The notes beneath the pieces are model-generated. The model searched no databases, was not told where the DNA came from, and saw nothing but the letters and a program-made list of their open reading frames with translations. Shown here piece by piece: positions 25,936-27,738 of a DNA stretch of 64,000 nt (position 1 is its first letter; every line of letters starts with the position of its first letter). The stretch is from Syntrophales bacterium. Lineage in GTDB: Bacteria; Desulfobacterota; Syntrophia; Syntrophales; UBA2210. The translations under genes and the position numbers were made by a program. The DNA lies in assembly GCA_963662405.2 (NCBI GenBank), contig CAXXKT010000002.1, forward strand, positions 352,001-416,000, written 5' to 3'.

Positions 25936-26286
25936 ATGATCAATTATTCTTCCATCTTTGTCGCTTTCATCATCGTGGGGTTCATTGCAACCGCATTTTT
26001 TGTTTCCGGTCGCAAGTCCAAACGGGCGGTCGGCGAGGTGCTCAGCATCTTCGAAAGGCACAACGCCATCGGAGTCCAAGAGGCCAAGATGGTAGACGAA
26101 CTGGGGTTAGCCTCTCCCACACTCGTAGCCAGCTTCAACAGCATGAGGGACTATAAACCCGGCGCTCTGAATACCCTGATACAGATGGATATCGTTCGCG
26201 TCACGGATGAAGGAAAGCTGTATGTTTCCGCGCGCAGTCTTGAGGAACGAAAAAAGAAAAGGAGGAATGATAAAAAGTCTTCATGA
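25936..26286 (+). CDS. Small membrane-anchored hypothetical protein; C-terminus supplied by IS110
   Basis: N-terminal TM helix, AAGGGA RBS; last codons lie within the inferred IS left end. Confidence 0.65.
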   Translation: MINYSSIFVAFIIVGFIATAFFVSGRKSKRAVGEVLSIFERHNAIGVQEAKMVDELGLASPTLVASFNSMRDYKPGALNTLIQMDIVRVTDEGKLYVSARSLEERKKKRRNDKKSS

Positions 26287-26289
26287 GCT

Positions 26290-26447
26290 GTGAATTGGGA
26301 TACACTGTTTGAAACTTTATAGTTTTGGGCAGCAAGGCTACTGTTCGACATGTTTACTGGTCTTCGAGACCGCAAAGGAGAATGAAGAGCTGTAGCCGCA
26401 ACATTCAATGATCTTCGAGATCGAATAGGAGATTGGGACCAATTCAC
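26290..26447 (+). ncRNA. Putative IS110 bridge RNA
   Basis: Closing stem GTGAATTGG/CCAATTCAC; two TCTTCGAGA hairpins, each followed by a 7-nt match to target or donor. Confidence 0.75.
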
Positions 26448-26483
26448 CTGACAGGCGCTGTCCAAGATGTGAGGAGGCGTTCT

Positions 26484-27596
26484 ATGAAGATGAGTATCGG
26501 GGTTGACCTTCACAAGACGCAGTTTACCGTTTGTTGTTTGAGTGAAGATCGGAGTGTTCAGGAGTCGGGCATCTACCCGACGACTGATCGAGGTTACCGG
26601 GCATTTATCATGAAGGTGTCCAACTGGAATGAGGGCGGTTACGAGGTCACGGCAGCGGTGGAATCAACAGGGAACACCCGACACTTTCGCAACCGGTTTT
26701 TGAAGGCGGGGATTGAGGTCAAGATAGTGAACACCTTGAAATTCAAGGTTGTAAATGAGTCAGTAAAAAAGACTGACAAGCATGATTCCCGCACATTGGC
26801 TGAGTTTCTTGAGAAAGATATGCTTCCCGAGTCCATTCTTTGTTCGCAGGAAAGCGAGGACATTCGAAGGCTTCTCAAGTCACGTTCTGTTCTGGTGAAA
26901 GCTTTGGTATCCTTGAAAAACCAGATACACGGTTTATTGCTTGGATATGGGATAGAGAGTCGGCGGGGACAGCTGCAGAGCAAAAAAGAAAGGCAGCGAA
27001 TCCTTGACGGTCTCGCGGACCATAGGAGTTACGGAAACGCTGCCCGAGCGGTAAAACCGCTTCTTGGTACAATAGACCAAATTGCATCCGAGGTCAAAGG
27101 ACTTGAGCGCGTATTATCTGATCTTGTTTCTGAAGACGAGGATGTTGCTCTGTTGCAAACGATTCCTGGCGTTGGAATAATAACAGCAGCGACGATTCGG
27201 GCTTATACCGATGACATCAACCGATATGAGAGCGCCAAGCAGTATGCTGCTCATGCCGGTTTGGTACCATGGGTTCAAAACTCCAACAAGACCATTCGCC
27301 ATGGTCATATTACCAAGCGAGGCCCCGTGGAACTGAGGACGGCTTTTGTGCAAATGGTAATGGGGATGCTACGGCTTCGGAATAAAACCGATGGATATTG
27401 GCTTATGTACAAATACAAAGCCATGAAAGAGAACAAGGGAACCGGGAAGAGCGTAATAGCGACGGCGCGAAAGATGAGCACTATTGTATATGCCATCTTG
27501 AAGAAGGGGGAGCTGTTTGATCCATCGAAAATGCTGCCAGACCCGAAATATGTAGAGATGAGTAAGGTTGCGAGGTGTTATGCTTTGGCCGTTTAA
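26484..27596 (+). CDS. IS110-family DEDD recombinase/transposase
   Basis: IGVDLHK, VESTG, KTDKHD, TIPGVG, AGLVP..QNS, ARK. Confidence 0.95.
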   Translation: MKMSIGVDLHKTQFTVCCLSEDRSVQESGIYPTTDRGYRAFIMKVSNWNEGGYEVTAAVESTGNTRHFRNRFLKAGIEVKIVNTLKFKVVNESVKKTDKHDSRTLAEFLEKDMLPESILCSQESEDIRRLLKSRSVLVKALVSLKNQIHGLLLGYGIESRRGQLQSKKERQRILDGLADHRSYGNAARAVKPLLGTIDQIASEVKGLERVLSDLVSEDEDVALLQTIPGVGIITAATIRAYTDDINRYESAKQYAAHAGLVPWVQNSNKTIRHGHITKRGPVELRTAFVQMVMGMLRLRNKTDGYWLMYKYKAMKENKGTGKSVIATARKMSTIVYAILKKGELFDPSKMLPDPKYVEMSKVARCYALAV

Positions 27597-27738
27597 ATTT
27601 TAACCATGGGCCTGTTTGACAGGCTCTCCATGAATTGACTTTTTATAGGAGTAATTCACGGTTGATTTTTGATTGATTGGAGCCGGAGACGATATCTATG
27701 TCCTCCAGCCCATGGCAGTCATGCACTTCAAGCAGTTC

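What the first reader, a model, noticed from the sequence alone, without database searches (positions are those of the whole stretch)
26260..27660. IS110 with a readable bridge-RNA-like guide pair matching its own target and donor
Seen: AGGAG occurs at both junctions (26260, 27647). The left end has a closing stem (26290-98/26439-47) around two similar hairpins, GGTCTTCGAGACC (26359) and GATCTTCGAGATC (26410). Two nt after the first is AAAGGAG, identical to the left target flank. Two nt after the second is ATAGGAG, identical to the element's right end (donor). On the 5' sides, TTACT (26354) complements the target AGTAA and CATTC (26402) complements the donor GAATG, though these two short matches are in different registers. 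Known: IS110 recombinases use bispecific bridge RNAs (IS621). Inference: this is a programmable bridge system in which the same-sense guides lie 3' of each hairpin, which looks reversed relative to IS621 as I recall it and may be a distinct architecture.
Basis: partly seen in the sequence, partly recalled or inferred. Interest (0 to 1): 0.85.

Follow-up and report, generated by a model that had tools for sequence, protein, structure and literature searches.

The report
RNA-guided insertion sequence targeting ribosome-binding sites
This is an active jumping gene of a known RNA-guided class whose own guide RNA steers it into the ribosome-binding site in front of host genes and rebuilds that site behind itself; its guide layout is the one already described for the IS1111 branch, not a new design.

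Summary
The element (window 26265-27651) is an IS110-family insertion sequence with nine near-identical copies in this genome. The 7-mer after hairpin 1 (AAAGGAG) tracks the left target flank across 43 related elements. CAUUC before hairpin 2 tracks the element's first bases (GAATG) across 47. The stems show compensatory changes.

The "sense" guides do lie 3' of each hairpin, the opposite of IS621. That order (top-strand match first) was published for IS1111-family seekRNAs in 2024. This element also has the IS1111 end geometry: a 10-bp subterminal inverted repeat and 7+3 terminal extensions. The atypical feature is that the RNA lies upstream of the transposase gene.

Right flanks differ among the nine copies. 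The one genomic site that matches both target guides fully is occupied, so a weak right guide remains possible.

The whole clade, across several phyla, inserts at AGGAG Shine-Dalgarno sites 3-9 nt before a start codon. No RNA data exist. Earlier notes of this scan report the same kind of element in other genomes. Verdict: real, a new member of a known kind.

The parts
26260..26264 (+). Left junction AGGAG: target left flank plus the shared core. By IS1111 convention the element would begin at 26263.
   Evidence: 8 of 9 copies have AAAGGAG here and 1 has TAAGGAG.
26265..27651 (+). The insertion sequence, 1387 bp when the shared AGGAG is counted at the right end.
   Evidence: Nine copies, 1 SNP (27514 T here, C in the other 8). 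Depth about 41 against about 3 in the flanks.
26265..26269 (+). GAATG: left terminal extension (right donor arm), read by the donor R guide.
   Evidence: Covaries with 26402-06.
26268..26276 (+). TGaTAAAAA: extended -10 of a promoter completed only in the circular form.
   Evidence: Read from the sequence. GATAAAA is invariant in 25 of 25 aligned relatives. Function is inferred.
26270..26279 (+). Left subterminal inverted repeat ATAAAAAGTC.
   Evidence: Reverse complement of 27637-46.
26283..26470 (+). Predicted bridge/seek RNA. The ends are approximate and the RNA has not been observed.
   Evidence: Structure and covariation. Invariant U.G pairs fit only the + strand.
26290..26298 (+). Closing stem, 5' arm (pairs with 26439-47).
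   Evidence: Kept in 49 of 49 relatives with 44 different arms.
26305..26332 (+). 5' stem-loop. Its 3' half can alternatively pair with 26461-70.
26336..26346 (+). Basal stem of the target loop, 5' arm (pairs with 26387-97).
   Evidence: Helix 1: 96% paired, 3 pairs with a change on both sides.
26349..26357 (+). Target loop 5' strand CAUGUUUAC: conserved CAU plus a hypervariable hexamer. Possible right target guide.
   Evidence: No positional covariation. Weak overall excess of cognate fit. A 10-bp match to the occupied site L002 only.
26358..26372 (+). Hairpin 1 with its closing U.G pair.
   Evidence: Helix 2.
26374..26380 (+). Left target guide AAAGGAG (same sense as the target top strand).
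   Evidence: z = 5.0 to 8.2 across 43 elements.
26402..26406 (+). Right donor guide CAUUC (complement of GAATG).
   Evidence: z = 4.2 to 6.8 across 47 elements.
26409..26423 (+). Hairpin 2 with its closing U.G pair.
   Evidence: Helix 3: 100% paired, 12 and 10 compensatory cells.
26425..26431 (+). Left donor guide AUAGGAG (same sense as the right end).
   Evidence: Identical to 27645-51. Both are near-invariant in relatives, so covariation cannot be tested.
26439..26447 (+). Closing stem, 3' arm.
26484..27596 (+). Transposase/recombinase gene, 370 aa, with RBS GAGGAGG at 26472-78.
   Evidence: PF01548 at 8e-19 and PF02371 at 3.2e-20. Aligns to IS621 through the KTDxxD and GLxPxxxxS motifs.
27635..27640 (+). 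TTGACT: the -35 hexamer, 17 nt from TAAAAA once the ends are joined.
   Evidence: Counted on the sequence. The right end TTGACTTTTTATAGGAG is shared by most relatives.
27637..27646 (+). Right subterminal inverted repeat GACTTTTTAT.
27645..27651 (+). ATAGGAG: left donor arm plus core. It regenerates a Shine-Dalgarno motif for whatever lies downstream.

Best explanation
This is an active IS110-superfamily insertion sequence with IS1111-type ends and an IS1111-type bridge (seek) RNA, but the RNA is encoded in the left end, upstream of the recombinase gene.

Proposed cycle (inferred by analogy with IS621 and ISEc11):
1. The element leaves as a circle in which the right and left ends abut.
2. The junction creates a promoter: TTGACT, 17 nt, TGaTAAAAA.
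3. That promoter drives a roughly 165-190 nt RNA and then the recombinase gene.

The RNA has a closing stem, a 5' hairpin, a target loop (an internal loop around hairpin 1) and a donor module (hairpin 2 with single strands in the multiloop). The proposed pairings are:
- Donor module, 3' strand AUAGGAG: does the same on the element's right end.
- Target loop, 5' strand: probably a weak right target guide that is often mismatched.

Strand exchange falls within the last three bases of AGGAG, most likely at an AG core.

Because the left guide spells a Shine-Dalgarno motif, copies land 3-9 nt ahead of start codons, co-oriented with the gene. The right end supplies a new AGGAG for that gene.

Shown here: the matches, their covariation, the stems, the copy number and the target pattern. 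Inferred: that the RNA is made, the junction promoter, the cleavage position, and any benefit of rebuilding the ribosome-binding site.
For: Recombinase:
- Both Pfam domains are present.
- The catalytic motifs align with IS621.
- Nine copies with one SNP indicate recent activity.

Guides:
- Left target guide against the left flank: identity 0.75 to 1.0, z = 5.7, 8.2, 5.0, 7.0 in 43 elements. The first data set alone gave z = 5.2 to 5.7 in 23 elements.
- Examples of the left guide tracking its flank: UUUAGGAG with TTTAGGAG (L014), CAGGAG with CAGGAG (L087), CACAGAG with CACAGAG (L129).
- Right donor guide against the first bases of the element: z = 6.0, 4.2, 6.8 in 47 elements.
- Examples of the right donor guide: CAUAC with GTATG, CAUGC with GCATG, CGUGC with GCACG, CACUC with GAGTG.
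- Duplex energy for the donor guide is -6.24 cognate against -4.19 non-cognate, p = 8.6e-5.

Structure:
- 97.1% of cells are paired, against 22-44% when the partners are slid. There are 46 compensatory cells, reached by 0 of 500 shuffles.
- The closing stem is kept in 49 of 49 elements.
- The U.G closing pairs are invariant (24 of 25 and 25 of 25), which fits only a + strand RNA.

Targets:
- 45 of 47 sites in 20 element families have an ATG 3-9 nt after AGGAG, with the mode at 6 nt in 24 sites.
- 45 of 53 sites open an ORF of at least 50 aa, or one running to the locus end.
- In this genome 8 of 9 occupied sites have an ATG at 5-9 nt, against 25% of 917 free AAAGGAG sites.

IS1111-type features:
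- A 10-bp perfect subterminal inverted repeat, with 10 nt between the arms in the joined form, which equals the published 7+3 extensions (PMC11187229 introduction passage).
- The top-strand match lies 5' of the bottom-strand match.
- The donor nucleotides sit in a multiloop, as noted for many IS1111 RNAs (PMC11208160 section 12).
Against: - No RNA evidence. No RNA run is listed, and Rfam gives only chance-level hits at E = 1.3 and 5.4.
- The single-sequence fold is only modestly better than shuffles (z = -1.91; 5 of 200 shuffles fold as well).
- The left donor guide and the right end are invariant, so that pairing rests on identity alone.
- The right target guide shows no positional covariation, whether anchored at the junction or at the ATG. 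Right flanks differ in all nine copies. Half of the canonical four-guide scheme for the target is therefore unproven.
- Neither R guide pairs with the presumed AG core, unlike IS621.
- The non-coding RNA region is upstream, which is not the IS1111 rule.
- The recombinase is about equally distant from IS1111 and IS110 references in phmmer bits: 76-78 to ISEc11, 60-62 to IS4321, 63-66 to an IS621-like protein of the same genome, 64.5 to IS621.
- The 16-row tree puts this clade with the IS1111 references (94/94), but the program flags long branches.
- Enrichment at gene starts could come from loss of gene-breaking insertions rather than from recognition.
Confidence: 0.85

Rival explanations
1. 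The target is read by the left guide alone (a half-site). The hypervariable 5' strand of the target loop is a spacer with no guide role. Its conserved CAU is structural, pairing with AUG at 26382-84.
For: - No positional covariation with right flanks in 37-39 elements.
- Nine different right flanks in one genome.
- The C:G and A:U pairs between CAU and AUG are kept in 24 of 25 sequences.
- Half-matched recombination is reported for IS621, but in a different sense: donor-arm recognition alone, independent of target complementarity (10.64898/2026.08.31.748434, abstract read).
Against: - Cognate 5' strands fit their own right flanks slightly better than other families' strands. Longest run is 4.35 against 3.94, p = 0.0046 in 37 families; the metagenome set alone gives p = 0.15.
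- At sites with a 5-nt spacer, 7 of 7 families score above non-cognate, 3.93 against 2.90 of 6 positions. This subset was chosen after seeing the data.
- In this genome the only site matching AGGAG-NAAA[CT]ATG is occupied. None of 2573 free ANAGGAG sites has an 8-base run, against 1 of 9 occupied sites.
Confidence: 0.35
2. The recombinase protein, not an RNA, recognises AGGAG sites. The matching 7-mers in the left end are recombination-site remnants or ribosome-binding-like motifs that drift along with the target.
For: - No RNA has been observed.
- The constant AGGAG could be a protein-read motif.
- The guide-coding DNA itself behaves as a recombination site in degenerate copies (L063, L064).
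Against: - The variable bases left of AGGAG change in step with the flank in 43 elements, and they sit at a fixed place in a conserved fold.
- The same fold carries an antisense match to the element's own first bases, and that match covaries too.
- The family mechanism has been shown experimentally in relatives (PMC11208160, PMC11187229).
Confidence: 0.05
3. It is a canonical IS621-type bridge RNA with the left guides on the 5' side of each loop, and the first reader picked the wrong segments.
For: The RNA lies in the left end, as in the IS110 group, and the same genome carries a true IS621-like element (284 bits to IS621).
Against: - The 5' strands (GACAUGUUUACU, GCAACAUUCAAU) have no same-sense match to the left target or left donor arm.
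- Covariation places the sense guide 3' and the antisense donor guide 5'.
Confidence: 0.02

Closest known systems
IS1111-family elements with seekRNA (ISEc11, ISPa11, ISKpn4; Siddiquee et al. 2024, PMC11187229)
   Same: - DEDD recombinase.
- Subterminal inverted repeats with asymmetric terminal extensions summing to 10 bp.
- A circular intermediate whose junction forms a promoter.
- The RNA segment complementary to the top strand lies 5' of the one complementary to the bottom strand.
- No target duplication beyond a shared short core.
   Different: - Here the non-coding RNA region is upstream of the gene, where the family rule is downstream. The paper names ISMtsp17 as an upstream exception but, in the sections I read, does not describe its RNA.
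- The inverted repeat is 10 bp, against the usual 11-13.
- The protein has 370 aa, against about 340.
- Protein similarity to ISEc11 and IS4321 is only 60-78 bits.
- The target is a Shine-Dalgarno motif, whereas the reported ISEc11 target is GTGAAAATACTG.
IS621 bridge RNA and recombinase (IS110 group; Durrant 2024 PMC11208160; Hiraizumi 2024 PMC11208158)
   Same: - The RNA is encoded in the left end and driven by a junction promoter.
- Two pseudo-symmetric modules, one for the target and one for the donor.
- L guides are same-sense and end on the core.
- An R guide is antisense to the right arm.
- The catalytic DEDD and Ser motifs align.
   Different: - The guide order within each module is swapped (R then L).
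- The donor module sits in a multiloop, not an internal loop.
- The R guides do not cover the core.
- No handshake-type covariation was found.
- The effective left target guide has only 7 positions, 4 of them variable.
- The N-terminal domain aligns only weakly (5-8 bits).
IS900/IS901/IS902 of Mycobacterium avium (IS110 family)
   Same: Recalled from memory, not verified in any call: these insert in one orientation between a ribosome-binding site and the start codon.
   Different: As recalled, their transposase gene is opposite to the target gene; here it is co-oriented.

Membership tests
IS110 superfamily DEDD recombinase | DEDD_Tnp_IS110 (PF01548) followed by Transposase_20 (PF02371) | tested here: met
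   E = 8e-19 and 3.2e-20, both above the curated cut-offs.
IS110 superfamily DEDD recombinase | Catalytic D, E, D, D and the C-terminal Ser in a G..P....S motif | tested here: met
   Alignment to IS621 and ISCro4 chains: IGVDLHK, KTDKHDSR and AGLVPWVQNS align with the corresponding motifs. The residue after Ser is N, not G. The E position was read by eye only.
Bridge/seek-RNA-guided IS | A non-coding end holding a structured RNA whose loops match the target and the joined ends, with covariation | tested here: met
   The left donor guide is untestable because it is invariant.
Bridge/seek-RNA-guided IS | The RNA is made and bound by the recombinase | not testable with these tools
   No RNA run is listed for this DNA.
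Bridge/seek-RNA-guided IS | A promoter formed at the circle junction | tested here: inconclusive
   TTGACT, 17 nt, TGaTAAAAA, read from the two ends and conserved in relatives. No circle junction has been observed, and one search found no joints.
IS1111 group | Subterminal inverted repeats, usually 11-13 bp | tested here: met
   10 bp perfect (26270-79 with 27637-46), continuing imperfectly (TTCATG) after a 2-nt offset. This is one base short of the usual range.
IS1111 group | Terminal extensions of 7 bp on the left and 3 bp on the right | tested here: met
   10 nt (AGGAG+GAATG) separate the repeat arms in the joined form. The 7+3 split holds if exchange is before the final AG. Variants L059 and L129 limit the exchange to the last 3 bases.
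IS1111 group | Top-strand match 5' of the bottom-strand match in the RNA | tested here: met
   The donor module is shown by covariation. In the target module only the bottom-strand (sense) guide is shown, and it lies 3'.
IS1111 group | Long non-coding region downstream of the transposase gene | tested here: not met
   219 nt upstream (26265-26483) against 55 nt downstream (27597-27651).
IS1111 group | The transposase clusters with IS1111-family transposases | tested here: inconclusive
   In the 16-row tree the clade groups with IS4321 and ISEc11, away from the IS621-like protein and a 400-aa IS110 type (94/94), but long branches are flagged. Bit scores to the two groups are similar.
IS110 group (IS621 type) | Left guides 5' of the stem loop and right guides 3' | tested here: not met
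   The order is the reverse (against PMC11208158 passages).
IS110 group (IS621 type) | Bridge RNA in the left end | tested here: met

The most novel reading that the evidence does not exclude
This clade, found in several phyla, may be a separate lineage between the IS110 and IS1111 groups. It would keep IS1111-type ends and guide order but carry the RNA in the left end. Its target loop may read a whole translation-initiation region: a 7-nt sense guide for the Shine-Dalgarno motif plus an antisense guide of about 10 nt running from the AG core through a 5-nt spacer to a conserved anti-start-codon CAU. Most natural copies would then be half-matched insertions, made through the left guide alone or through the donor loop, as in the 9 of 15 ATAGGAG left flanks of one family.
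Probability: 0.25. Interest if true: 0.5.

Novelty: new member of a known kind. Interest (0 to 1): 0.33.

Why it matters
- It adds a well-supported natural example of an IS1111-type guide order encoded in the left end. This bears on how the RNA moved between element ends during evolution, a translocation proposed in PMC11208160 section 12.
- It shows a clade whose guide is aimed at a universal motif, the Shine-Dalgarno sequence. An insertion there should be transcribed from the host's 5' UTR, and the gene keeps a ribosome-binding site.
- The effective target guide is short, with about 4 variable positions. That makes these elements poor templates for specific genome editing, but a natural case for studying tolerance to half-matched sites.
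- None of this changes the known principle.

Tried and rejected
- **Rfam**: only two chance-level hits (E = 1.3 and 5.4). This is no evidence either way, since I do not know whether the library holds a bridge-RNA family.
- **RNA runs**: no RNA holder is listed. The three holders are contigs from a single study.
- **Laying those contigs**: no joints, no empty site and no circle junction. The call only confirmed the ends and the multi-copy depth.
- **Right-flank covariation**: anchored at the junction and at the ATG, no signal.
- **RNA-DNA duplex energies for the right flank**: -4.03 against -2.94, p = 0.18.
- **Gapped matching over all spacers**: p = 0.20. With a 6-nt spacer: p = 0.58.
- **Handshake-type covariation** between each loop and the non-cognate DNA: nothing consistent. 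The few extra hits trace to the two AGAG-target families or to single variants.
- **AAUGA after the left target guide**: it resembles the element's first bases but does not covary with them, so I read it as structural.
- **Small ORF from AGGAGAATG**: rejected because the ATG is lost in relatives, which have ACUG or AUUG.
- **Canonical-order control on the IS621-like element of the same genome**: failed. I could not delimit its ends, because the copies sit in a repeated context.
- **Literature for the IS900 target site**: the statement was not retrieved.
- **Rows dropped** before the covariation counts, as degenerate or misparsed: L033, L058, L060, L063, L077, L079, L085, L133.
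Full report
**Observation.**
- AGGAG at 26260-64 and 27647-51.
- The closing stem, 26290-98 with 26439-47.
- The two hairpins at 26359-71 and 26410-22.
- AAAGGAG at 26374-80 and ATAGGAG at 26425-31.
- TTACT at 26354-58 and CATTC at 26402-06.

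The ORF 26484-27596 encodes a 370-aa protein with DEDD_Tnp_IS110 and Transposase_20. Its catalytic motifs align with the solved IS621 and ISCro4 recombinases.

**Ends and copies.** The same genome holds nine copies. They differ by one base, 27514, which is T here and C in the other eight. Identity to the window stops at 26256-59 on the left and 27651-54 on the right. Public contigs of the organism show loose ends at the same places, and depth is about 41 on the element against about 3 beside it.
- Left flanks: AAAGGAG in 8 of 9 copies and TAAGGAG in 1.
- Right flanks: all nine differ.

**Relatives and target.** A protein-guided scan of one genome per species gave 77 loci at 31-90% identity. 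They come from Desulfobacterales, Spirochaetia, Treponema, Leptospira, Dehalococcoidales, Lentisphaeria and others. By my parsing, 23 of them also held a left end, and one of those (L133) was a misparse.
- Nearly all relatives end in TTGACTTTTTATAGGAG.
- In 20 element families, 45 of 47 sites have an ATG 3-9 nt after AGGAG. The spacer is 6 nt in 24 sites, 5 in 9 and 7 in 6.
- Of 53 sites with enough flank, 45 open an ORF of at least 50 aa, or one running to the locus end.
- In this genome 8 of 9 copies have an ATG at 5-9 nt and 7 of 9 open such an ORF. The window copy is the exception: it sits in the 3' end of ORF 25936-26286.
- Only 25% of the 917 free AAAGGAG sites in this genome have an ATG at 4-9 nt.

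Occupied sites are therefore enriched for true gene starts. Recognition, or loss of gene-breaking insertions, could each explain this.

**Structure.** On 25 distinct relatives, the basal stem of loop 1 and both hairpins are 97.1% paired, against 22-44% when the partners are slid. They carry 46 compensatory cells, a count reached by none of 500 shuffles. The closing stem is kept in 49 of 49 elements with 44 different 5' arms, at mean -15.1 kcal/mol against -10.9 with arms from other elements.

The bases flanking each hairpin form an invariant U.G pair, in 24 of 25 and 25 of 25 sequences. That would be a C-A mismatch on the other strand, so the RNA is read from the + strand.

The single-sequence fold alone is weak evidence (z = -1.91).

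**Guides.** I paired each distinct RNA with its own flanks and compared this with shuffled pairings. Dropped rows are listed under Tried and rejected.
- Left target guide: positions 3-6 of the strand after hairpin 1 (the AAAG of GCAAAGGAG) equal left-flank positions -6 to -3. Identity is 0.75, 0.95, 0.95 and 1.0, with z = 5.7, 8.2, 5.0 and 7.0 in 43 elements (first set alone).
- Right donor guide: CAUUC before hairpin 2 is complementary to the first bases of the element. Complementarity is 0.98 to 1.0, with z = 6.0, 4.2 and 6.8 in 47 elements. Variants such as CAUAC with GTATG, CGUGC with GCACG and CACUC with GAGTG show the compensation.
- Left donor guide: AUAGGAG after hairpin 2 is identical to the right end, but both are invariant, so covariation cannot speak.

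Two families whose targets read AGAG instead of AGGAG carry GAGAG and CAGAG in the guide (L059, L129). Their left junctions keep the target's version while the right end keeps AGGAG. This places strand exchange within the last three bases, and an AG core is the natural reading.

**The fourth guide.** The strand before hairpin 1 has the form G-N-CAU-NNNNNN-U, with a hypervariable hexamer.

Against a guide role:
- No positional covariation with right flanks, whether anchored at the junction or at the ATG.
- Duplex energies are not significantly better for cognate pairs (p = 0.18).

For a guide role:
- Cognate strands fit their own flanks slightly better overall: p = 0.0046 in 37 families, but p = 0.15 in the independent metagenome set.
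- At 5-nt-spacer sites, all 7 families beat non-cognate strands. This subset was chosen post hoc.
- In this genome the one site that matches AGGAG-NAAA[CT]ATG is occupied (copy L002, 10 pairs including one G.T).
- No free ANAGGAG site, of 2573, has an 8-base run.

I leave a weak right target guide at roughly even odds.

**Comparison with what is known.**
- IS621. The left guides lie 5' of each stem loop, and the right guides plus handshake bases lie 3' (PMC11208158, passages; PMC11208160, passages).
- IS1111 seekRNAs. Siddiquee et al. report that these carry the top-strand match 5' of the bottom-strand match, and that the order is reversed in IS110 types (PMC11187229; abstract and sections 9 and 12).
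- IS1111 ends. They define IS1111 elements by subterminal inverted repeats, usually 11-13 bp, with 7-bp left and 3-bp right extensions (introduction passage).
- IS1111 RNA fold. Durrant et al. note that many IS1111 RNAs hold their donor-binding bases in a multiloop (section 12).

This element has a 10-bp perfect subterminal repeat, exactly 10 nt between the arms in the joined form, the IS1111 order and a multiloop donor module.

It departs from the IS1111 rule in having its RNA upstream. The paper lists upstream cases as rare exceptions, for example ISMtsp17 (section 6).

**Protein placement.** This is unresolved. phmmer bits from this protein:

| Compared protein | Bits |
|---|---|
| ISEc11 | 76-78 |
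| IS4321 | 60-62 |
| 322-aa protein of the same genome | 63-66 |
| IS621 | 64.5 |

The 322-aa protein itself scores 284 bits to IS621. A 16-row tree groups the clade with the IS1111 references at 94/94, but with flagged long branches.

A 2026 preprint reports many bridge-RNA models that deviate from the IS621 fold (10.64898/2026.10.21.760802, section 8). Diversity of this kind is therefore expected.

**Mechanism.** The junction promoter (TTGACT 27635-40, 17 nt, TGaTAAAAA 26268-76) is read from the sequence and conserved in relatives, but no circle was observed. Because every insertion lies in a 5' UTR and is co-oriented with the gene, host transcription should also run into the RNA and the recombinase gene. 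The right end then supplies AGGAG at the original distance from the start codon. Both points are inference.

**Verdict.** The 'new architecture' is the published IS1111 order in an unusual location. Earlier notes of this scan describe the same kind of Shine-Dalgarno-targeting element in other genomes, none of them similar in sequence to this one. I rate it a new member of a known kind, of moderate interest.

Noticed in passing
L018:1175-1287, L019:1140-1287, L025:1142-1287; also L096 and L130 (about the last 150-175 nt before the right-end motif): There are miniature elements of about 110-175 nt. They keep the element's first bases (GAATGATAAAA, then a hairpin) and its right end (...CTTTTTATAGGAG) but have no gene and no guide RNA. 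Three of them sit directly in front of a full-length copy. They are probably mobilised in trans, and their right end then serves as a target.
   Followed up: partly
L013-L028 (one Spirochaetia chromosome, 15 copies with the same RNA): 9 of 15 left flanks read ATAGGAG, which matches the donor guide and the element's own right end. Only 4 of 15 read TTAGGAG, which matches the target guide UUUAGGAG. This may reflect insertion next to mini-element ends, or donor-loop-directed (half-match) insertion.
   Followed up: partly
window 26321-26332 with 26461-26470 (alignment A1 columns 78-85 with 216-223): RNAalifold prefers pairing the 3' half of the 5' stem-loop with a stretch just upstream of the transposase RBS. 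Eight pairs are predicted, with up to 10 sequences changed on both sides at one pair. This pairing crosses the closing stem, so it is either a pseudoknot or an alternative fold that could couple RNA folding to transposase translation.
   Followed up: no
L063 (left end), L064 (left boundary), L061 (left end): Degenerate copies are rearranged exactly at the guide-coding AGGAG motifs. L063 lacks the DNA between the two motifs, L064 is truncated at the first, and L061 has a 12-nt duplication there. The element's own guide-coding DNA seems to act as a recombination site, a hazard of such a short guide.
   Followed up: no
L048:2621-2678: The last 29 nt of the right end are duplicated in tandem (two copies of ...GACTTTTTATAGGAG).
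   Followed up: no
own genome, outside the window: G000:C1:164559-164999 and four more places; G000:C1:128997-129464 and one more: The genome carries two other IS110-family elements. One is an IS621-like type (322 aa, 284 bits to IS621, 5 copies). The other has a 400-aa ORF (2 copies).
   Followed up: partly
window 26294-26267, minus strand: A promoter-like site (TTCACA, 16 nt, TATCAT; 10 of 12 matches) points outward from the left end. In the whole region 4 such sites were found against 1.8 expected, so it may be chance.
   Followed up: no
L067-L083, L073-L078 (Lentisphaeria/Victivallales clade, 31-36% identity): Even this distant clade ends in ...ATCATAGGAG, sits before start codons, and has AAAGGAG and AUAGGAG in its upstream non-coding region. 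The Shine-Dalgarno habit therefore looks old. I did not work out its RNA fold.
   Followed up: no
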